From an uncultured Candidatus Cloacimonadota bacterium (GTDB lineage: Bacteria > Cloacimonadota > Cloacimonadia > JGIOTU-2): a stretch of 45,521 nt of DNA. Under the pieces are notes generated by a model, which saw only the letters and a list, made by a program, of their open reading frames with translations, did no database searches and was not told where the DNA came from. The DNA lies in contig CAYUTH010000002.1 in the NCBI GenBank assembly GCA_964447485.1, forward strand, positions 1 to 45,521, given 5' to 3'. A program made the translations under genes and the position numbers. Position 1 is the stretch's first letter, and each line of letters begins with the position of its first letter. Below, in pieces: positions 407 through 45,467 of the stretch.

Positions 407-1033
407 TTACAGATTATCCAATAAGACCTTTGTAAATTCAATACTGGTAAACTGACTTCCCTGATCGGTGTTGAAGATTTCAGGTCTCCCGTATTTACTG
501 ATAGCTTCATTCAATGCTTCTACACAAAAGCTGCGATCCAAAGTGTTGCTGATTTTCCAGCTCAACATTTTAAGACTAAAAATATCAGTTATGGCTGTGA
601 GATAAACAACTCCGCGCTTTAGACGAAGATAAGTAATATCACTAGCCCATACCTGATTCACATGATCAATAGCCATGCCCGATAGAAGATAAGGATACTT
701 TTCATGTTGTGTATTAGGAATACTAAGATTGAGCTTGGGATAAATTGCTCGTATGTTTAAGTTATGCATTATACGCCTAACTGGTTTGCGATTGATCTGA
801 TGGCCATTTCGCTTCAACTCTTCTGTTATTCTGCGATAACCGTAGAATGGCCGCTTTAGATAAATCGACATGATTGCATCTTCCAATTTTCGTTCATTTT
901 TCTTCTCTGTTTTTTGATAATACACACTGCTTCTATTTACTCCCAATAATTCACATTGTTGACTGATTGATAGGGAGTCATTGTTACGCTCTACAAGTCC
1001 GGCTCTTTCCCGAATATTTGTATGTACTTTTTT
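407..1033 (-). pseudogene. IS3-family transposase OrfB (rve/DDE), C-terminally truncated
   Basis: It contains WASDITYL (first catalytic D) and NTDQGSQFTS (second D). It ends at LLDNL-stop, about 100 residues short of full-length OrfB proteins, so the region carrying the catalytic E is absent. Confidence 0.8.
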
Positions 1034-29276: not shown

Positions 29277-29397
29277 TATGGCTCCCTGTTTATTCCTTGT
29301 AATGGCATGGTTAGAATAAAGATTTTTTTTTCCATATGTTTGTCAAATTTTGTATGCATTTTCTTGACATTCATGTTCATTCTATCAGAAAAAAATT

Positions 29398-29742
29398 ATG
29401 AGAATCGATAGTTACCAGTTCGGAAAGATGGTCATAGACGGAATTCCGTACACACATGATGTGATCATACACAATAATTATGTGCAGTCAGATTGGTGGA
29501 GAAAGCGTTCGCATCATTTGATACTTGCAGATATTCCCAGCCTGCTATTTGAAAAACCGGATGTGCTCGTTGTCGGCACAGGCAAATTCGGCTTGATGAA
29601 AATTGATAAAGAAGTGATCAGGTATTGTGATAAACATGGCATCGAGCTTATTTGGAAAGATACATCCAGTGCCGTAGATGCTTATAATGATTTGCAGGAT
29701 TCCGGAAAACACTTCATCGCCGCATTCCATTTGACGTGCTGA
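29398..29742 (+). CDS. Mth938-like domain protein (DUF498 family)
   Basis: 114 aa. Matching blocks are IDSYQFGKMVIDGIPYTHDVII, PDVLVVGTGKFGLMKI and GIELIWKDTSSAVDAYNDL. Confidence 0.65.
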   Translation: MRIDSYQFGKMVIDGIPYTHDVIIHNNYVQSDWWRKRSHHLILADIPSLLFEKPDVLVVGTGKFGLMKIDKEVIRYCDKHGIELIWKDTSSAVDAYNDLQDSGKHFIAAFHLTC

Positions 29743-29743
29743 G
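29716..29743 (+). repeat. Direct repeat copy 1 (att-like), the last 8 codons plus stop of the Mth938-like gene
   Basis: ATCGCCGCATTCCATTTGACGTGCTGAG is identical at 27/28 positions to 31618-31645. Confidence 0.9.
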
Positions 29744-29855
29744 TACATATAGCACAAACAACAGATATTTGTTGACACATATAGGGAAAAAAATCTTTTT
29801 AAAATCATTAATGGATTGATCTTGGTACAGACGTTTTAAATTAAATTAATAAACA

Positions 29856-29867
29856 TAAAACGTTTTA
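29856..29867. promoter_or_regulatory. Perfect 12-bp palindrome TAAAACGTTTTA upstream of the cassette (candidate operator)
   Basis: It is self-complementary. The half-site ACGTTTTA also occurs at 29831-29838. It lies 33 nt upstream of the ATG at 29900. Confidence 0.3.
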
Positions 29868-29899
29868 ACTGATCCGTTAATATATCTAGTGTGATTAGA

Positions 29900-30787
29900 A
29901 TGAAATTAATTTATAGAAAACGAGTTTTATTGGCAATAATTCAATCCTTCGGAGGTGAACTAGGAGTAACACATTTTCAAAAATTATTATTCTTATTTAA
30001 TCAAAGACAGAAAAAAAAAACTTACAATTTTGTACCAAATAGATCCGGATGTTTTTCATTTCAGGCAGTTGCTGATAAATCACGATTGATGAAAGACGGA
30101 TTTCTTGAAAATGTTAAACAATGGAAAACTATTTCGTGTGAAACGAATTTCTCATCATCTTTAACTGATTTTGACAGGAAAGAGCTCGGTAAATTAAGAA
30201 TCAAATACGAAAATCTTACAACAAAAGAATTAATACGAGAAATTTATTTAACTTATCCTTATTATGCAATTAACAGCGAGATTGCCGAAAAACACCTTAA
30301 TGAAGAAGAGAGAGAAGCAATATATAGACTGAAACCAAACGATTTCAAAACAATGCTTTTTACAATTGGTTACGAGGGAAAATCATTAGAAAATTATTTG
30401 AATCATTTAATACAAAACAACATAAAAGTGCTATGCGATGTAAGAAAGAATCCAATCAGTATGAAATATGGATTTGCAAAAAAAACATTACAAAATGCTT
30501 GTGAGGTGTTGAATATAAAATATATACATTTCCCCGAATTAGGTATTGAATCAAGAAAAAGAATAAACCTAAAAACACAAGCAGATTACGATTCATTATT
30601 TTTTGATTATGAAAAGACGGTATTGAGCAAACAGACTGAACAAATTAATACAATAGTGGATTTGCTCGATAATTACAATCGTGTTGCACTGACATGTTTC
30701 GAATACTCTCCCCAACAATGCCATCGTACAAGAGTTGCAAATGCCGTAATTAACTCATCTCCTGAATGCTCATTAGAACACTTATAA
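29900..30787 (+). CDS. Two-domain protein: unassigned N-terminal domain (about 150 aa) fused to a C-terminal DUF488 domain
   Basis: The C-terminal half has TIGYEGKSLENYLNHLIQNNIKVLCDVRKNPISMKYGFAKKTLQNACEVLNIKYIHFPELGI ... VALTCFEYSPQQCHRTRVANAV, the hallmark DUF488 blocks (TIGHS, VDVR, F.K..L, LG, C.E....CHR). An alternative GTG start lies at 29891. Confidence 0.7.
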   Translation: MKLIYRKRVLLAIIQSFGGELGVTHFQKLLFLFNQRQKKKTYNFVPNRSGCFSFQAVADKSRLMKDGFLENVKQWKTISCETNFSSSLTDFDRKELGKLRIKYENLTTKELIREIYLTYPYYAINSEIAEKHLNEEEREAIYRLKPNDFKTMLFTIGYEGKSLENYLNHLIQNNIKVLCDVRKNPISMKYGFAKKTLQNACEVLNIKYIHFPELGIESRKRINLKTQADYDSLFFDYEKTVLSKQTEQINTIVDLLDNYNRVALTCFEYSPQQCHRTRVANAVINSSPECSLEHL

Positions 30788-31602
30788 TGACCAAGAAAAA
30801 AATACTTGTTACAGTCAAAACCTATCCAACAATTTCAAAAAAATATGACGAATTAGTATGCACTGCAGGTTTTGATGAAGATGGTAATTGGATTAGAATT
30901 TACCCTATCCCATTTAGGAAACTTGATTATGTTCATCAATATAAAAAATATCAATGGATTGAAATGGATTTAATAAGGAACAAGAGTGATTTTCGCCCTG
31001 AAAGTTATAGTCCGAGAAACATAGATGCTGCTGATGTGATTACTTTTCATGATAAGTTGGGAACAGAAGAAAACTGGGCTGAGAGAAAAAAAATTATCCT
31101 CAGAAATATATACGATGACATGTCCGCATTAATTGCCGAAGCAAAAACTAAGGGACTATATACCTCCTTAGGAGTTTTTAAACCTGCTGAAATTAAAGAT
31201 TTCGTCTGCAAACCTGTTGAAAAGGAGTGGAGTGAAAAACAAAAAGCAACTCTTGAGCAAGAAAGATTATTTGATAAAAAAAGCACTCATGAGATAGTAA
31301 AAAAGCTCCCATACAAGTTTAGCTACACCTTCTGTGATGTAAATGGAACAGAATCCACATTAATGAATGAAGATTGGGAGATTGGCGCTTTATTCTGGAA
31401 TTGTCTTGAGAAAAACCGCGGTGATGAACATGCCGCTTGCGAGGATGTAAGAAAAAAATATTGGGATGACTTTGCAAAAACTAAGGATTTGTATTTTTTT
31501 CTTGGTACAACTAAACTAAATCATCTTAGAGCTCCAAATCCATTTATTATTATTGGAACATTTCATCCAAAAAAAGACCTGCAATCCAAATTGGAGATTT
31601 AG
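30787..31602 (+). CDS. Hypothetical protein (271 aa), no family recognised; translationally coupled to the DUF488 gene
   Basis: The ATG at 30787 shares a base with the upstream TAA (TAATG). The protein starts MTKKKILVTVKTYPTISKKYDELVCTAGFDEDGNWIRIYPIPFRKL. There is no TM helix or signal peptide. The upstream extension to 30766 is unlikely to be translated. Confidence 0.6.
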   Translation: MTKKKILVTVKTYPTISKKYDELVCTAGFDEDGNWIRIYPIPFRKLDYVHQYKKYQWIEMDLIRNKSDFRPESYSPRNIDAADVITFHDKLGTEENWAERKKIILRNIYDDMSALIAEAKTKGLYTSLGVFKPAEIKDFVCKPVEKEWSEKQKATLEQERLFDKKSTHEIVKKLPYKFSYTFCDVNGTESTLMNEDWEIGALFWNCLEKNRGDEHAACEDVRKKYWDDFAKTKDLYFFLGTTKLNHLRAPNPFIIIGTFHPKKDLQSKLEI

Positions 31603-31617
31603 ATTTCTCAAAGTAAG

Positions 31618-31645
31618 ATCGCTGCATTCCATTTGACGTGCTGAG
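31618..31645 (+). repeat. Direct repeat copy 2 (orphan copy of the Mth938-like gene 3' end)
   Basis: ATCGCTGCATTCCATTTGACGTGCTGAG still reads IAAFHLTC-stop. Weaker similarity to the sequence after copy 1 continues for about 45 nt (ACAAAC...AGATATTT..TTGACA). Confidence 0.9.
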
Positions 31646-31768
31646 CTTGTATATTACAAACCCATCTAAATAGATATTTTTATTGACATCGGATGCAACA
31701 TTTGCTATTTGTAAGTTACTGAAATTGTAAACACTTATAACTCTATAAAGATAAGGCGGAAAAGATAA

Positions 31769-32893
31769 ATGAAAAAAGTATTGATTATTTCTTATTTGAT
31801 TCTTATGCTATTTATTTTAACGAGTTGTGATTTACTCCATCTATTTAGTAATCACTATACCTGCGAACTTTTTAAAGATGCAATCTACTTTATCGATACA
31901 GACGGAAGTAACCTTAGAAAGTTAGTCAGCCTCGATCATATAGAAAGTAATTGTGAAGATGATACAATAGATTTGCTTCCAGGTGCCAGACTACTATTAT
32001 TCACGCCTGATGGCAACAAAATAATTTATTGTACGAATCCTTATGAATCCAATAATAATAGTCTTTATTCTGTAAATTGTGATGGTAGCGATAATACACT
32101 TCTTACAGAAGATTTAAACGTTCTTTACAATTATGGTGGAATATCAATTTCTTGCATAGAATCAAAAATTATATTTATCGGTAATGTTAAGTATTTGAAC
32201 GATAAAAGTGAAAAATTCTCAGATATTTTTATGGTAAATTTGAATGGATCAAATCTGAATAATATAACAAATACTTATGGGATTAATGAAAAAAATCCTC
32301 GCTTCTTACCTAATGGTGAAGACATCATTTATTCTTCAATTAATCATTTGAATGACTTAAAATCGTATTCAATTAATAAATTACATCTTAACAGTGGTTC
32401 TATTGATACACTCGTATTTAATAATGAATATGCCTATAAACATCTTTTATTATCTCAAGAAGGGACCCAAATATATTATGTTGTATATAAAGACAATTCT
32501 TATTCCTTCTTCGCTATGAATTCAACTGGAATACATCAGGTGCAACTATATGAAAATATTCCTTCTATTAACAATACTCCATCCATATCTTCAGATGGTT
32601 TAAAAATTGTATATGTTAGCAATCATAATTTGTGTATTATGAATACAAATGGCTCAGGCATTAATCAAATAGAAACATCATTATACTATCCTTGTTACCC
32701 CACGTTCTCACAAGGAGGAACTAAAATATTATACTCAGGTTCTGCTATTAATGATAGTATTTACATAATAAATATTAACGGATCAAATGAGATGACAATA
32801 CATGAGGGATTTATGCCAGCCCTTTCACCGGATGAGAATAAAATAGCTTTCTCGGGATACTATTTTTATAAGACATATGACTATTGGGAGTAG
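31769..32893 (+). CDS. Lipoprotein with TolB-like/PD40 beta-propeller repeats
   Basis: It has a signal peptide with a lipobox (LFILTSC). Recurrent D/NGS..xxL repeats are present (DGSNLRKL, DGNKIIY, DGSDNTLL, NGSNLNNIT, NGEDIIY, DGLKIVY, NGSGINQI, NGSNEMTI, DENKIAF). Confidence 0.7.
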   Translation: MKKVLIISYLILMLFILTSCDLLHLFSNHYTCELFKDAIYFIDTDGSNLRKLVSLDHIESNCEDDTIDLLPGARLLLFTPDGNKIIYCTNPYESNNNSLYSVNCDGSDNTLLTEDLNVLYNYGGISISCIESKIIFIGNVKYLNDKSEKFSDIFMVNLNGSNLNNITNTYGINEKNPRFLPNGEDIIYSSINHLNDLKSYSINKLHLNSGSIDTLVFNNEYAYKHLLLSQEGTQIYYVVYKDNSYSFFAMNSTGIHQVQLYENIPSINNTPSISSDGLKIVYVSNHNLCIMNTNGSGINQIETSLYYPCYPTFSQGGTKILYSGSAINDSIYIININGSNEMTIHEGFMPALSPDENKIAFSGYYFYKTYDYWE

Positions 32894-33060
32894 AATATAC
32901 ATTATAACTATTAACCTCTACCCGTTTTAATTTTCGGTAATAATTTTTTCGATCAGTTTACTTGAGCGAATCTATCTCATTTTTTTACTCAATTTTCCGA
33001 ATAAAATAAATCCCAAAAATAATTATTGACAACCACATATTTAATTCTCAAATAAGAGTT

Positions 33061-34494
33061 ATGAATAGGATGAAAGTCGGAGTAAGAACCTCACAGCTCA
33101 TGCAGCAGAAGCTCAAGCTCTCGCCGCAGATGCTTATCACTGCTGAGCTTCTCCAGAAGCCAATCCAGGAACTGGAAATGGTGCTTAAAAAGGAACTCCG
33201 CATTAATCCTTTCCTACAGGATCTCAGTTCGGATGAAGAGCAATACGATACACCTGAAGTTGCGGATGAGATGGAGGAATATCAATATAATGATGATGAT
33301 GGAGACCTTGCAGACCAGATACTGCAACTGAACAAGATCATCAATGATATTGGCGAAGTGACCAATGACCAGTTCGGGTATGAACGACAGGACAGATCCA
33401 GACCTTCTCCTGATAATGAAGAATACGAAACATCAAAAGAAAATATCTGGGACAACTTCATCCTGCAGGTGAAAGAATTACCGCTTAACCCGGCAGAGCA
33501 AGAATTTGCAGATTCCATTCTCAATAACCTTGATGCAAACGGTTACCTCGACACGCCTTTTGTAGAATTGTATGAATCCTATGGGCTTGCTGAAGCACGA
33601 GCGGAGCAAATCCATCGTATGATAATGAGTATCTATCCGCGTGGAATGGGAGCACGAAATCTTTCAGAATGCCTGCTTGCACAGCTCGATGAAGAAACCG
33701 CGAACCACCCGGTCATTACCTCTATTATTGAAAACGATCTTGATATCTTACAGAATCACCGACTGGATATGCTGACAAAGAAATACAATATTGCTCTCGA
33801 AGAGCTGGTTGCCATCAAAAATATTATCCACCACCTTGACCCAAAACCCGGGAGCCGGATAACGAACGGGACTTTATCATACATTAAACCGGATATCATC
33901 GTAAAAGAGATCGACGGCGATCTTGAGATCATTGTAAACGACACATACATTCCGGAGATAACGGTCAATAAAGAGTACGCACAGCGGATACTTGCGCAGA
34001 GTGCAGATAAGAAAAGCGCAGTGAAATATGTAAGATCAAAACTCCTTGCTGCTGAAAACTTCGTGAAGGCATTATGGATGAGACGGGAGACACTTCTCAG
34101 GATAACTGATGAACTTATTCATCAGCAGTCAGCCTTCTTCCGGGAAGGAAAAAAGGAGCTCCAGCCAATGACCTATGAGGATGTGGCAAAAAAGATCAAG
34201 CGGGATGTTTCAACCATCTGTAGAGTTGTGAATAATTATTATATTGAAACACCGCTCGGAGTTTATCTTATGAAGTGGTTCTTCACCAGCAAAGTGGGCG
34301 ACCTCTCATCCCAGCTTATCAAAAAAGAAATTCAGAAAATCGTTGATGCGGAGAACAAGAAAAAGCCGCTTAGCGATCAGAAAATTGTGAATATTTTAAA
34401 CGACCAGGATATCGACGTATCACTTCGGGCAGTGACAAAATACAGAAATCAAATCGGCATTGCTGCCAGCAGACTGCGGAAAGAACATCTTTAA
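33061..34494 (+). CDS. rpoN: RNA polymerase sigma-54 factor
   Basis: Region I is QQKLKLSPQMLITAELLQKPIQELE, followed by an acidic region II, an HTH (YEDVAKKIKRDVSTICRVV) and an RpoN box (SLRAVTKYRNQIGI). The start may be the Met at 33070. Confidence 0.9.
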   Translation: MNRMKVGVRTSQLMQQKLKLSPQMLITAELLQKPIQELEMVLKKELRINPFLQDLSSDEEQYDTPEVADEMEEYQYNDDDGDLADQILQLNKIINDIGEVTNDQFGYERQDRSRPSPDNEEYETSKENIWDNFILQVKELPLNPAEQEFADSILNNLDANGYLDTPFVELYESYGLAEARAEQIHRMIMSIYPRGMGARNLSECLLAQLDEETANHPVITSIIENDLDILQNHRLDMLTKKYNIALEELVAIKNIIHHLDPKPGSRITNGTLSYIKPDIIVKEIDGDLEIIVNDTYIPEITVNKEYAQRILAQSADKKSAVKYVRSKLLAAENFVKALWMRRETLLRITDELIHQQSAFFREGKKELQPMTYEDVAKKIKRDVSTICRVVNNYYIETPLGVYLMKWFFTSKVGDLSSQLIKKEIQKIVDAENKKKPLSDQKIVNILNDQDIDVSLRAVTKYRNQIGIAASRLRKEHL

Positions 34495-43085: not shown

Positions 43086-45467
43086 ATGAGGAAGATATTC
43101 GATCATCCTTTTATTCCTATTACTGCATGTTTTATTGGAGGATTACTTTTGGGCTCATATCTCCAATTTCCAATAATTCCTGTTGCAATTACACTCCTTT
43201 TAGTTACGGTATTTCTCCTCATTTTTAAGAAGCGACCACTTTTTTTCATCGTGGTTTTGCTGCTTCTTTTTGGGATATTCAGATTTCAGATAGGTAGGAT
43301 TCTGCCGGAACATCATATTGCACATTTTATTGATCATCTTGGGATTGAAAAAGTTCACATTGAAGGAGACATTATTGAAGAACCTGAAGAATCTCCAGGT
43401 AAGATCTCATGTTTAATTAAGCTTACTCAGCTCGAAGGTGTTCCTGTGCTTGGTAATATTCTCCTCACAATCAAAGATACAGATAACGACACAGCTCCTT
43501 CTTATGGTGATCATATTAGTTATCATGGAACCGCATTTCGCCCTCTCAAGAATAACAATCCCTACAGTTTCAATTACCAGGAATACCTTGAGAACAATAA
43601 TATTCACGGGCTTTCTTACCTCTATAGAGCGGATTACACTATCACCAAAAAATCAAAAGATCTCTATTATTATCTCATAGTTGTGCCCAGAAATTGGATA
43701 AGAAACCGGATCAACAAATTTTATTCATCAGGATATTCCGGCTTCCTGAAAGCGATTCTGCTTGGTGAAAAGAATTCTCTATCCCCACAATTAAAACAGG
43801 ATTTTGCTTCATCGGGCTTGTCACACATACTTGCCGTCAGCGGTTTGCATACCGGTGTGATCGCACTCATCTTTTTAACGATCTTCCAGATAGTGTTCAG
43901 AAATCGCACCGCAGCTCGAATTCTTACGATAGTTTTACTCATTTATTATATGCTGCTGGCTCATGCAGTTCCTTCTGTTCAGCGCGCCGTGATCATGATA
44001 AGTTTGGTGCTTTTGGCAAAGATATTGCAAAGAAGGATCAGCACAATAAATATTCTCTTCGCTGCGGCTTTTATCATTCTTGTGATAAATCCCATGCAGT
44101 TATTCAGCATCGGATTTCAGTTATCCTTTATATCGGTGTTTGCCATTCTTGTTATCTTTCAGTATCTGTCCAAAAAATTAAATCCGCTTCGGAAAAATCA
44201 CTCAAAATTATTTTGGCTGCTTAATCTTATGCTTTTAAGTTTGATGGTTCAGATCGTTCTTGCACCACTCACAATTCATTATTTCCACACACTTGCGCTG
44301 GGTGGAATAATTGCAAACGTAATAGCAATACCCCTTATCTCTCTTATGCTTCCGCTTTCCATTCTTTCAATCTTGTTTCCAATTTCTGCAATATGTGCTG
44401 TGTATGCTGCTGCGAATAAGTTATTGCTTTTTCTCGTTTTCGCAATTTCCCGTTTTGTTGCATCACACAGAATCCTCTTATTTGATTTCCTTTATCTGAA
44501 TGATCTTCAAATCCTTTCACTATATACAGTAATGCTTATGCTTATACTCCTGTGGAAACATTCGGACAATTCTCAGATAAAACTGTATAAATTTCTTTCA
44601 TTTTCCGTTTTGACTATAACAATTCTCGTGGTACCCGGATTATTAAGAGAACGAAATTTCGAGATCACTGTTCTCGATGTCGGACAGGGTGATGCGATCG
44701 TTATACGCACACCTGCTCATAAAACCATTCTCATCGATACTGGGGACAAAACGATGAATAAGGATTACGGAGAACTCGTTGTTGTTCCATACTTTAAAGC
44801 CCGGGGAATCAAGGATATTGACCTGCTCATCCTCACTCATCCTCATGCGGATCATATTGGAGGAGCTCAAGCAGTTATGGAAAATATCCGGGTTGATAAA
44901 GTGTTGATTCCGCGTTGTGAATATGAGTCCACTTTGTATGATAATGTGCTGGCTTCCTTCGAAGAAAATAAGATAGAAGTAATATATGCAGACACCTCTC
45001 TTGTGTTTCAGGAATTCCAGCCCGTAAAACTAAAAATATTACATCCTGCCTACGAATATAGAAATGAAAATAATGTAAATAACTACTCGATTGTAGTAAA
45101 AGCTGAGTATGAGAATTTTGCCGTACTTTTTACCGGAGATGCAGAGAAAGAAGTTGAAGAAATCCTTATTGAAAATTGGGGGAATAAATTGGATTCGGAT
45201 CTTTTAAAAGTAGGACATCATGGCAGTAATAGTTCTTCGACTTTTGAATTTTTGGAGCATGTTTCTCCGGAATATGCGGTAATTTCAGTTGGAACAAAAA
45301 ACAGGTACGATCATCCTGACAAAGAGGTCATTGTGAGAATAGAGAATTCTACTGATAAACTATTTCGCACAGATTTGGATGGGGCAGTGATTTTTACCTA
45401 TGGAGGTAATTCTTTGAATATAAAGACTATAGTATCTGAGAAGGAAATTATTGATTGTGATATATAA
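43086..45467 (+). CDS. comEC: DNA internalisation-related competence protein ComEC/Rec2 (DUF4131, competence and metallo-beta-lactamase domains)
   Basis: It has N-terminal TM helices plus an OB-like region, the competence-domain block SGLSHILAVSGLHTG, and a C-terminal MBL domain (VLDVGQGDAIV, LILTHPHADHIGG, GDAE, VGHHGS). Confidence 0.9.
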   Translation: MRKIFDHPFIPITACFIGGLLLGSYLQFPIIPVAITLLLVTVFLLIFKKRPLFFIVVLLLLFGIFRFQIGRILPEHHIAHFIDHLGIEKVHIEGDIIEEPEESPGKISCLIKLTQLEGVPVLGNILLTIKDTDNDTAPSYGDHISYHGTAFRPLKNNNPYSFNYQEYLENNNIHGLSYLYRADYTITKKSKDLYYYLIVVPRNWIRNRINKFYSSGYSGFLKAILLGEKNSLSPQLKQDFASSGLSHILAVSGLHTGVIALIFLTIFQIVFRNRTAARILTIVLLIYYMLLAHAVPSVQRAVIMISLVLLAKILQRRISTINILFAAAFIILVINPMQLFSIGFQLSFISVFAILVIFQYLSKKLNPLRKNHSKLFWLLNLMLLSLMVQIVLAPLTIHYFHTLALGGIIANVIAIPLISLMLPLSILSILFPISAICAVYAAANKLLLFLVFAISRFVASHRILLFDFLYLNDLQILSLYTVMLMLILLWKHSDNSQIKLYKFLSFSVLTITILVVPGLLRERNFEITVLDVGQGDAIVIRTPAHKTILIDTGDKTMNKDYGELVVVPYFKARGIKDIDLLILTHPHADHIGGAQAVMENIRVDKVLIPRCEYESTLYDNVLASFEENKIEVIYADTSLVFQEFQPVKLKILHPAYEYRNENNVNNYSIVVKAEYENFAVLFTGDAEKEVEEILIENWGNKLDSDLLKVGHHGSNSSSTFEFLEHVSPEYAVISVGTKNRYDHPDKEVIVRIENSTDKLFRTDLDGAVIFTYGGNSLNIKTIVSEKEIIDCDI

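What the first reader, a model, noticed from the sequence alone, without database searches (positions are those of the whole stretch)
29716..31645. A 1.9-kb two-gene insertion is bracketed by 28-nt direct repeats that duplicate the 3' end of the Mth938-like gene
ATCGC(C/T)GCATTCCATTTGACGTGCTGAG occurs at 29716-29743 and again at 31618-31645, identical at 27/28 positions by my alignment. Copy 1 is the last 8 codons plus stop (IAAFHLTC*) of the Mth938-like gene. Copy 2 is an orphan that still encodes the same 8 residues and stop. It happens to lie in frame behind the TAG of the second cassette gene (…KLEI*ISQSKIAAFHLTC*). Looser similarity continues for about 45 nt after each copy (ACAAAC…AGATATTT..TTGACA). 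Exactly two genes lie between the copies. This is the classic footprint of site-specific insertion into the 3' end of a gene, with the coding end regenerated (attL/attR-like). However, there is no integrase, transposase or tRNA inside or beside it. It could therefore be a decayed islet or a cassette mobilised in trans. A hand count of a 100-nt sample gives about 25% GC at the start of the first cassette gene, against about 39% in the Mth938-like gene and about 50% in rpoN.
Basis: partly seen in the sequence, partly recalled or inferred. Interest (0 to 1): 0.85.

Follow-up and report, generated by a model that had tools for sequence, protein, structure and literature searches.

The report
Repeat-flanked defence cassette, no integrase
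A two-gene candidate anti-phage cassette sits behind a small conserved gene in an uncultured Cloacimonadota bacterium, bracketed by a real 28-base duplication of that gene's end; relatives show it is an old insertion scar at a variable hotspot, kept, lost precisely and swapped by recombination, not a recently arrived self-mobile element.

Summary
The 28-nt direct repeat (29716-29743 and 31618-31645, 27/28) is real, non-random and found in independent assemblies. It brackets a leader, two genes and a 15-nt spacer. The genes match the PADLOC candidate defence pair PDC-M19A/B (E 7e-113 and 6e-121).

Five Cloacimonadota lineages carry the same layout: Mth938-like (DUF498) gene, cassette, then an orphan copy of the gene's end. 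Other lineages have precise empty alleles. Still others hold different cargo at the site, without the repeat.

Gene A has diverged in step with host genes, although the window-versus-clade-II value (dS about 1) is near saturation. No recombinase lies in the 45-kb window or in any related locus examined. The repeat accompanies no other cargo. So this is probably an old insertion at a defence hotspot. Its repeats now appear to serve as short recombination anchors for precise loss and for allele exchange.

Three details fail:
- The similarity in the tails after each copy is not significant.
- Low GC runs past the right repeat, through a PD40 gene, to about 33050.
- rpoN is about 43% GC, not 50%.

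One thing stays unexplained: the spacer plus orphan is more conserved than neutral sites. Interest is moderate.

The parts
29398..29742 (+). DUF498 / Mth938-like gene (114 aa). Its C-terminal IAAFHLTC is nearly invariant across the family.
   Evidence: Pfam PF04430, E 1.7e-21. Alignment A1 of 17 relatives shows FHLTC invariant.
29716..29743 (+). Direct repeat copy 1: the last 8 codons, the TGA stop and one further base of the DUF498 gene.
29744..29899 (+). Leader T1 of the cassette, with a promoter-like TTGACA at 29772-29777. It is homologous among cassette-bearing lineages and diverges at roughly the neutral rate (0.54-0.72 identity).
29900..30787 (+). Gene A (295 aa): an N-terminal helical domain plus a C-terminal DUF488 domain. 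It matches PADLOC PDC-M19A.
   Evidence: PADLOC 7.1e-113. Pfam DUF488 1.2e-23. AF2 model pLDDT 91.7, with only weak fold hits to PTP-fold phosphatases and a DarTG chain.
30787..31602 (+). Gene B (271 aa), matching PADLOC PDC-M19B. It has no Pfam or NCBIfam family. The predicted fold weakly resembles tandem OB-fold single-stranded-DNA binders.
   Evidence: PADLOC 5.7e-121. No Pfam, NCBIfam or PDB sequence hit. AF2 pLDDT 83.6; Foldseek hits to TEBP, Teb1, POT1 and HIN domains at TM about 0.3.
31015..31215 (+). Hypervariable segment of gene B. A coexisting strain allele (L021) is only 64-82% identical per 50-nt block here, but 100% identical from the orphan copy rightwards.
31603..31617 (+). 15-nt spacer ATTTCTCAAAGTAAG between the TAG of B and the orphan copy. 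It is conserved in all cassette-bearing lineages (13-15 nt long).
31618..31645 (+). Direct repeat copy 2: an orphan copy of the DUF498 gene end. It is found only behind gene B.
   Evidence: Together with the spacer it is conserved above the neutral expectation.
31646..31768 (+). Leader T2 (type b) of the downstream gene, with TTGACA at 31683-31688. It is homologous to the sequence that directly follows the DUF498 stop in cassette-less L027.
   Evidence: Local alignment score 44 against 13.2 +/- 2.3 for shuffles; alignment A5.
31769..32893 (+). PD40 / TolB-like beta-propeller lipoprotein-like gene (374 aa, 24-31% GC). It is absent from all sampled relatives outside this species and forms part of the window-specific low-GC block.
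   Evidence: Pfam PD40 5.8e-14; NCBIfam TolB-like, below cut-off.
32894..33010 (+). The rest of the window-specific block. Homology to sister species resumes at 33011, in the rpoN promoter region.
   Evidence: blastn break points at 29744 and 33011.
33061..34494 (+). rpoN, the conserved right-hand flank of the hotspot.

Best explanation
The repeat is probably the scar of one old insertion. A promoter-bearing leader, the PDC-M19A/B gene pair and a 15-nt spacer entered the last 28 nt of the DUF498/Mth938-like gene in an ancestor of this Cloacimonadota family. The gene's coding end was kept intact (copy 1), and a second copy was left as an orphan behind gene B (copy 2). Whether the original event was site-specific or a single crossover by a circular DNA carrying a short homologous stretch cannot be told.

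Since then the cassette has stayed at this one locus, the DUF498-rpoN gap. That gap is a hotspot holding different cargo in different lineages. The cassette has been inherited largely vertically.

Today the element encodes no recombinase. I infer that the two copies act as short homology anchors. Recombination between them removes the cassette exactly. Recombination at the orphan copy lets cassette alleles move between lineages regardless of what lies downstream.

Shown: the repeat, the conserved layout, precise empty alleles, co-divergence of gene A with host genes, mosaic exchange in gene B, and the absence of a recombinase. Inferred: the single origin, and the role of the repeats in loss and exchange.
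For: 1. The same layout (DUF498 gene, T1, A, B, spacer, orphan) occurs in five diverged lineages. Repeat spacing is 1902-1906 nt in the four measured lineages: window, L028, L019, L056.
2. Synonymous divergence of gene A equals that of host genes at both depths. Window against clade II: A 0.98-1.08, rpoN 1.12-1.26, LigT 1.10. Within clade II: A 0.24-0.37, rpoN 0.23-0.34. T1 diverges at about the neutral rate.
3. The orphan copy is found only behind gene B. It is absent from other cargo at the same site (L026, L027), from cassette-less relatives and from 24 DUF498 loci of other phyla. PDC-M19 pairs in other phyla have no flanking repeat.
4. Precise empty alleles exist. The L023 tail is homologous to L028 T2 (score 108 against 15.5). 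The L027 tail is homologous to window T2 (44 against 13.2). All four combinations of cassette present or absent with tail type a or b occur. The single 28-mer in L027 is identical to the orphan consensus.
5. Recombination tracts end at the spacer and orphan. The 3' half of B has 0.97 third-position identity between the window and L028, while T2 is unrelated. The L021 allele diverges up to about 31565 and is identical from 31615 on. In L020 against L056, the A-B block is mostly 88-100% identical per 40-nt block, while the DUF498 gene, T1 and T2 are 45-82%.
6. There is no tyrosine or serine recombinase in the window or in any related locus.
7. A ComEC competence gene at 43086-45467 fits uptake of DNA for homologous exchange.
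Against: - In the host tree the window is nested among three empty-site lineages (L009, L011, L022) that share one homologous empty allele. Pure vertical inheritance therefore needs several losses, or the window lineage regained the cassette from an unsampled donor.
- dS of about 1 is close to saturation.
- After that much time the cassette is still far lower in GC than the host.
- The spacer plus orphan (46 nt) is more conserved than neutral sites: 0.83-0.93 identity against 0.61-0.69 at third codon positions (P 0.0009-0.03). A passive scar does not explain this.
- In the window both copies share the codon TTC, seen in no other sampled lineage, and TGC, which differs from the TGT of every other orphan copy (TGC also occurs in the gene end of L009, L011, L023 and L056). 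This needs gene conversion or a more recent event.
- No excision or recombination event at the repeat has been observed directly. All 11 same-species contigs are occupied.
Confidence: 0.55

Rival explanations
1. One reading: the 1.9-kb unit is still a mobile, recombinase-less cassette (CIME- or satellite-like). Its attL and attR are the two 28-mers, and a site-specific recombinase encoded elsewhere in the genome, or on a visiting element, excises and integrates it.
For: - The geometry is that of integration into a gene's 3' end with the end regenerated.
- Precise occupied and empty alleles exist.
- The window lineage is nested among empty-site relatives.
- The element-side spacer plus the orphan copy is conserved above neutral, as a functional attR would be.
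- The left boundary of the repeat is sharp.
Against: - No integrase lies in 45 kb or in any related locus.
- No other cargo uses this site with the repeat, and there is no tandem accretion.
- Gene A and T1 co-diverge with the host.
- IMG/VR holds no exact match to the 28-mer (C or T at position 6) and no close relative of B.
- By inspection, the repeat has no inverted-repeat core.
- Repeat length and internal differences vary between lineages (28, 31 and 27 nt, with 1-7 mismatches), which suits homologous exchange better than a fixed crossover point.
Confidence: 0.2
2. The orphan copy and spacer are kept because they are a working cis element, not because of recombination. Examples would be an operator or upstream element shared by the T1 and T2 promoters, or a 3'-UTR element of the A-B transcript. 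On this view the duplication simply copied a regulatory module along with the gene end.
For: - The 46-nt block is conserved above the neutral expectation, and more so than the coding copy 1.
- Each copy lies 28-38 nt upstream of a TTGACA motif.
Against: - There is no supported RNA structure: RNAalifold gives -6.5 kcal/mol, with one possible compensatory change among 14 predicted pairs.
- There is no Rfam match.
- The sequence between each 28-mer and its TTGACA is not conserved, and its length varies.
- The promoter scan is uninformative in this AT-rich DNA.
- The genes downstream of T2 differ between lineages.
Confidence: 0.12
3. The repeat is a chance match, a dispersed REP-like repeat or an assembly artefact.
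For: None found.
Against: - None of 100 shuffles gives any match.
- There are only two copies in the window.
- The spacer-orphan junction occurs only behind gene B in 621 kb of related loci.
- No cassette-less relative and none of 24 DUF498 loci from other phyla holds a second copy of its gene end.
- The same structure appears in independent assemblies from several studies.
Confidence: 0.01

Closest known systems
CIMEs (cis-mobilizable elements): decayed integrative elements that keep attL and attR but have lost their integration and transfer genes (definition in PMC5704250; the streptococcal examples in the 3' end of fda are recalled from memory)
   Same: Both are short cargo segments in the 3' end of a protein-coding gene. 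Both are flanked by direct repeats that include the gene's end, and neither carries an integrase.
   Different: No related integrase-bearing element that uses this site was found. There are no remnants of integration or transfer genes and no tandem accretion. The cassette has co-diverged with its host, and no other cargo shares the repeat.
Core defence hotspots flanked by conserved core genes (P. aeruginosa cDHS, PMC10250203; E. coli hotspots, PMC10121019)
   Same: The conserved flanks (DUF498 and rpoN) hold variable, low-GC cargo in different lineages, and part of that cargo is defence-related: PDC-M19 here, LeoA-like dynamin GTPases in L027, an IS110 plus other genes in L026. Lateral transfer by homologous recombination through conserved flanks was proposed for cDHS in PMC10250203.
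   Different: Here one particular cargo carries its own copy of the flank's last 28 nt. I did not find that feature reported in the text searches I ran on those two papers. The E. coli study attributes most hotspot cargo to recognisable mobile elements.
PADLOC candidate defence system PDC-M19
   Same: Both proteins match the PDC-M19A and PDC-M19B models over their full length. They form an overlapping two-gene operon, as in homologues from other phyla. In L054 the pair lies next to a type I restriction-modification system.
   Different: PDC-M19 is only a computational candidate. No paper mentioning it was found, and its function is untested.
Integron gene cassettes
   Same: Both are small, recombinase-less cargo units with a recombination-site-like sequence at the 3' end.
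   Different: There is no attC-type imperfect palindrome, no IntI and no array. The repeat here is a copy of a host gene's end.

Membership tests
Site-specific integrative element / CIME | [quoted passage not shown] | tested here: met
   28-nt repeat, 27/28; copy 1 is the 3' end of the DUF498 gene.
Site-specific integrative element / CIME | Empty-site alleles with a single copy of the repeat | tested here: met
   L023 against L028, and L027 against the window. The sister species L009, L011 and L022 are also empty, but with a different intergenic allele.
Site-specific integrative element / CIME | A cognate integrase, in the element or in a related functional element that uses the same site | tested here: not met
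   None in the 45-kb window or in any related locus. No close relative of B and no exact 28-mer match in IMG/VR. The rest of the genome could not be searched.
Site-specific integrative element / CIME | Remnants of integration or transfer modules, or tandem accretion with other elements at the same att site | tested here: not met
   Only a leader, two genes and a spacer lie between the repeats. There are no further copies of the repeat.
Site-specific integrative element / CIME | Excision to a circular form, or transfer | not testable with these tools
   Needs raw reads or experiments. All 11 same-species contigs are occupied.
PADLOC PDC-M19 candidate defence system | Adjacent genes that match both the PDC-M19A and PDC-M19B profiles | tested here: met
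   E 7.1e-113 and 5.7e-121 with full-length matches; the genes overlap by one base.
PADLOC PDC-M19 candidate defence system | Anti-phage activity | not testable with these tools
   No literature found. Supporting context only: a type I restriction-modification neighbour in L054 and a hypervariable segment in B.
Core-gene-flanked defence hotspot | The same pair of conserved flanking genes with variable cargo, or none, across related genomes | tested here: met
   The DUF498-rpoN gap is empty in L009, L011, L022 and L025. It holds a small ORF in L023 and the cassette in the window, L019, L020, L028 and L056. L026 holds an IS110 plus other genes, and L027 holds LeoA-like GTPases.
Dispersed REP-type repeat | Many copies at unrelated loci | tested here: not met
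   Two copies in the window. In 621 kb of related loci the spacer-orphan junction occurs only behind gene B. The exact 28-mer is absent from IMG/VR.
Integron cassette | An attC imperfect palindrome and an IntI integrase | tested here: not met
   No inverted-repeat structure around the orphan and no integrase.
Transposon / IS target-site duplication | Terminal inverted repeats plus a transposase, with a short duplication | tested here: not met
   No terminal inverted repeats at the cassette ends and no transposase inside. From general knowledge, 28 nt is far longer than usual target duplications.

The most novel reading that the evidence does not exclude
In this family the PDC-M19 cassette could be a minimal mobile unit that carries no recombinase. 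It would carry a copy of the last 28 nt of a conserved host gene as a built-in, selectively maintained recombination site. That would allow exact, reversible gain and loss, and transfer into any relative whatever lies downstream. The agent would be either RecA acting on a stretch about as long as the minimal efficient processing segment (about 23-27 bp in E. coli, recalled from memory) or an unlinked, unknown recombinase. This would explain why the spacer plus orphan is more conserved than synonymous sites, and why several recombination tracts end there.
Probability: 0.2. Interest if true: 0.6.

Novelty: new member of a known kind. Interest (0 to 1): 0.35.

Why it matters
Many defence islands sit at hotspots between core genes with no recognisable mobile-element genes, and how they come and go is an open question (PMC10250203). 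This locus is a compact, well-bounded example in an uncultured phylum. It has a 1.9-kb candidate defence pair, exact occupied and empty alleles, and a short duplicated gene end at which several recombination tracts stop.

If the duplicated end is shown to drive gain, loss or allele exchange, it would be a concrete mechanism for moving defence genes without mobile-element machinery. It would also give a sequence signature to search for at other hotspots.

The case also adds context for PDC-M19, an untested candidate system. Protein B is strongly conserved across phyla and has a hypervariable segment. Its predicted fold weakly resembles OB-fold proteins that bind single-stranded DNA.

Tried and rejected
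- **Dispersed repeat or chance:** rejected.
- **Repeat extended by about 45 nt of tail similarity:** not significant; it is only a shared promoter-like motif.
- **Stop-codon readthrough making a B-IAAFHLTC fusion as a conserved feature:** rejected. L019 has a second in-frame stop, and L028 has a 13-nt spacer that shifts the frame. One strain allele (L006) does have TAG changed to TTG, which fuses the two.
- **The orphan evolving like coding DNA:** 6 of 9 changes fall at third codon positions (about P = 0.04 by hand calculation). Two of those are shared with copy 1 in the window, so the signal is weak and is better explained by conversion from the coding copy.
- **Conserved RNA structure over the end of B, the spacer and the orphan:** weak, with one possible compensatory change among 14 predicted pairs. 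No Rfam family matches.
- **A dif- or lox-like 11-7-11 arrangement across the spacer-orphan junction:** seen by eye only (7/11 arm symmetry). Substitutions in L020 and L056 do not preserve it, so it was dropped.
- **Integron, IS or IS110 mechanisms:** no attC, no terminal inverted repeats and no transposase in the cassette. The IS110 in L026 is a separate insertion.
- **Searches that gave little:**
  - Genome contigs with the single DUF498 protein found nothing.
  - The metagenome scan returned only distant DUF498 genes.
  - IMG/VR has no close relative of B, and the degenerate 19-mer hits there do not extend beyond the pattern; their number is about what I estimate for chance.
  - No paper mentions PDC-M19.
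  - The promoter and terminator scan is uninformative in AT-rich DNA.
- **Fold searches for A and B:** only weak matches.
Full report
**Observation**

The sequence ATCGC(C/T)GCATTCCATTTGACGTGCTGAG occurs at 29716-29743 and 31618-31645, identical at 27/28. These are the only two matches in the 45.5-kb window at up to three mismatches. No match appeared in 100 dinucleotide-preserving shuffles.

Copy 1 is the last eight codons plus TGA of a 114-aa DUF498/Mth938-like gene at 29398-29742 (PF04430, E 1.7e-21). Copy 2 encodes the same IAAFHLTC* and lies in frame behind the TAG of the upstream gene. Two genes lie between the copies. There is no tRNA in the window.

- The similarity in the tails after each copy is no better than shuffled sequence. 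The score is 11 against 9.3 +/- 1.8, and other TTGACA sites in the window score as well or better.
- rpoN is about 43% GC, not 50%.
- Low GC (24-36%) continues past the right repeat, through a PD40 lipoprotein-like gene, to about 33050.

The structure is present in eleven contigs from about ten samples, five of which run through the orphan copy, so it is not an assembly artefact.

**What the cargo is**

Gene A (29900-30787, 295 aa) has a C-terminal DUF488 domain. It matches PADLOC PDC-M19A over its full length (7.1e-113). Gene B (30787-31602, 271 aa) matches PDC-M19B (5.7e-121). It has no Pfam, NCBIfam or PDB sequence match.

Both families are large: thousands of members with 60-70% (B) or 47-65% (A) identity across phyla. 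The pair stays together elsewhere, once next to a type I restriction-modification system.

An AlphaFold model of B (pLDDT 83.6) gives only weak Foldseek hits, all to tandem OB-fold single-stranded-DNA binders (TM about 0.3). The model of A (pLDDT 91.7) weakly resembles PTP-fold phosphatases and a DarTG chain.

No paper mentions PDC-M19. The defence role is therefore a database candidate and not a shown function.

**Organism and site**

Relatives identify the host as an uncultured Cloacimonadota bacterium close to Ca. Celaenobacter. The gene order recX-recA-LigT-adenosine kinase | DUF498 ... rpoN is conserved across the family.

The gap between DUF498 and rpoN varies between lineages:
- Empty, about 155 nt (226 nt in L025): L009/L010, L011-L013/L024, L022, L025.
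- One small ORF: L023.
- The A-B cassette plus small ORFs: L019, L020, L028, L056.
- The cassette plus PD40: the window and L021.
- An IS110 transposase with unrelated genes: L026.
- A pair of LeoA-like dynamin GTPases: L027.

Against the nearest sister species (about 91% nucleotide identity), homology stops at 29744 and resumes at 33011. The window-specific block is therefore the cassette plus PD40, which matches the low-GC stretch.

**The repeat belongs to the cassette**

Every cassette-bearing lineage has an orphan copy of the DUF498 gene's end 13-15 nt after the stop of B. Repeat spacing is 1902-1906 nt in the window, L028, L019 and L056.

The orphan copy is absent from all of the following:
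- other cargo at the same site;
- cassette-less relatives;
- 24 DUF498 loci from other phyla.

PDC-M19 pairs in other phyla also lack any such flanking repeat. The spacer-orphan junction occurs nowhere else in 621 kb of related loci. The 28-mer has no exact match in IMG/VR.

**Empty-site counterparts**

Two families of downstream leader exist. Type a is found in L023, L028, L019, L056 and L020. Type b is found in the window and L027.

In cassette-less L023 the DUF498 stop is followed directly by the type-a leader that follows the orphan in L028 (score 108 against 15.5 +/- 2.8 for shuffles). In cassette-less L027 the stop is followed by the type-b leader that follows the orphan in the window (44 against 13.2 +/- 2.3).

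All four combinations of cassette present or absent with leader a or b occur. This requires recurrent exact gain or loss, or recombination at the 28-mer. The single 28-mer in L027 is identical to the consensus of the orphan copies.

**Age of the insertion**

Nei-Gojobori synonymous divergence of gene A equals that of host genes at two depths.

| Comparison | Gene A | rpoN | LigT | DUF498 |
|---|---|---|---|---|
| Window vs clade II | 0.98-1.08 | 1.12-1.26 | 1.10 | 1.04-1.40 |
| Within clade II | 0.24-0.37 | 0.23-0.34 | n/a | 0.41-0.58 |

The leader T1 is homologous in all lineages and diverges at about the neutral rate (0.54-0.72 identity). The layout is therefore old, not a recent arrival.

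One complication remains. In the host tree the window is nested among L009, L011 and L022, which share one homologous empty allele. Either there were several losses, or the window lineage regained the cassette from an unsampled donor.

**Recombination inside and at the edge of the cassette**

Gene B is mosaic.
- Between the window and L028, dS is 0.30. Third-position identity is 0.97 in the 3' half, while the leaders after the orphan are unrelated.
- Between L028 and L019, dS is 0.93, higher than for the host genes.
- A coexisting strain allele (L021, from the same sample as L003) is only 64-82% identical per 50-nt block over 31015-31215. It is 100% identical from 31615 rightwards.
- Between L020 and L056, the A-B coding block is mostly 88-100% identical per 40-nt block. 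The DUF498 gene, T1 and T2 are 45-82%.

So cassette alleles are exchanged between lineages, and several tracts end at the spacer and orphan.

**An unexplained feature**

The stop, spacer and orphan (46 nt) are 0.83-0.93 identical between the window and clade II. Third codon positions of A and B are 0.61-0.69 identical (0.85 for B against L028, where the 3' half was recently exchanged), and the distal leader is 0.55 (binomial P 0.0009-0.03; against the clade consensus, 1e-5).

The orphan copies are more alike than the coding copies are. In the window both copies share TTC, seen in no other sampled lineage, and TGC, which differs from the TGT of the other orphan copies (TGC also occurs in the gene end of L009, L011, L023 and L056). 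This points to conversion between them or to a more recent event.

No RNA structure is supported and there is no Rfam match. Readthrough is not conserved.

**Interpretation**

The best-supported account is one old insertion into the last 28 nt of the DUF498 gene. It could have been site-specific, or a single crossover with a circular DNA carrying a short homologous stretch. The result has been retained at a hotspot.

I infer that the two copies now act as short recombination anchors for exact loss and for allele exchange. The length, 28 nt, is about the minimal efficient processing segment reported for E. coli RecA-dependent recombination (recalled from memory, not checked). A ComEC gene lies in the window.

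No recombinase was found in the window or in any related locus, no other cargo carries the repeat, and no attP form was found.

**Comparison with known systems**

The locus works most like a CIME. [quoted passage not shown] The locus fails the tests for a cognate integrase and for decay remnants, so it is not filed as one.

It does fit the description of a core-gene-flanked defence hotspot, for which transfer by homologous recombination through conserved flanks has been proposed (PMC10250203; compare PMC10121019).

The finding is a tidy new instance of known kinds of genome plasticity, with one feature (the conserved orphan) still to be explained.

Noticed in passing
window 31015-31215 (gene B); L021: A strain in the same metagenome sample as L003 carries a B allele only 64-82% identical per 50-nt block over this 200-nt segment, but identical to the right of the gene. 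This is a hypervariable patch of the kind seen in specificity regions of defence genes.
   Followed up: partly
window 31191-31645 against L028 4800-5264: The 3' half of gene B, with the spacer and orphan, is nearly identical at synonymous sites (0.97) between two lineages whose host genes differ by dS of about 1.1. This indicates recent exchange between species, ending at the orphan copy.
   Followed up: partly
L006 2340-2386 (window 31600-31645): In one strain allele the TAG stop of B is TTG, so B is fused to ISQSKIAAFHLTC, encoded by the spacer and orphan (284 aa).
   Followed up: partly
L071 79-936: A B gene 95% identical to the window's is cut at ...GGAACATTTCAT and joined to unrelated, higher-GC DNA encoding another protein. 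This is either a chimeric contig or a rearrangement at a CATTTCAT motif that also occurs in the 28-mer of other lineages.
   Followed up: no
L026 5230-9866; L027 6346-12342: Other cargo occupies the same DUF498-rpoN site. L026 has an IS110-family transposase with a Por-secretion-tail protein, a CBM96 protein and a response regulator. L027 has two LeoA-like dynamin GTPases and a weak PDC-M09A-like protein. Neither has the repeat.
   Followed up: partly
window 29317-29346 and 29772-29801: A 30-nt inverted repeat (24/30) brackets the DUF498 gene. The cassette leader TTGACACATATAGGGAAAAAAATCTTT resembles the conserved adenosine-kinase promoter region on the opposite strand. This is seen only in the window lineage. 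It could be convergence or a local conversion.
   Followed up: partly
window 31769-32893: The PD40/TolB-like lipoprotein-like gene (24-31% GC) was found only in this species. L027 keeps a homologous leader, followed by ATG and a run of A, but the sequence after that is different.
   Followed up: partly
window 407-946 (-) and 43086-45467 (+): An IS3-type transposase fragment (HTH_21 plus rve) lies at the left end of the window. A ComEC competence gene lies at the right end.
   Followed up: no
window 29398-29742: The DUF498 gene evolves much faster at the protein level than its neighbours (dN 0.109 against 0.018-0.036 versus L009) while dS is similar. Its C-terminal FHLTC stays invariant.
   Followed up: no
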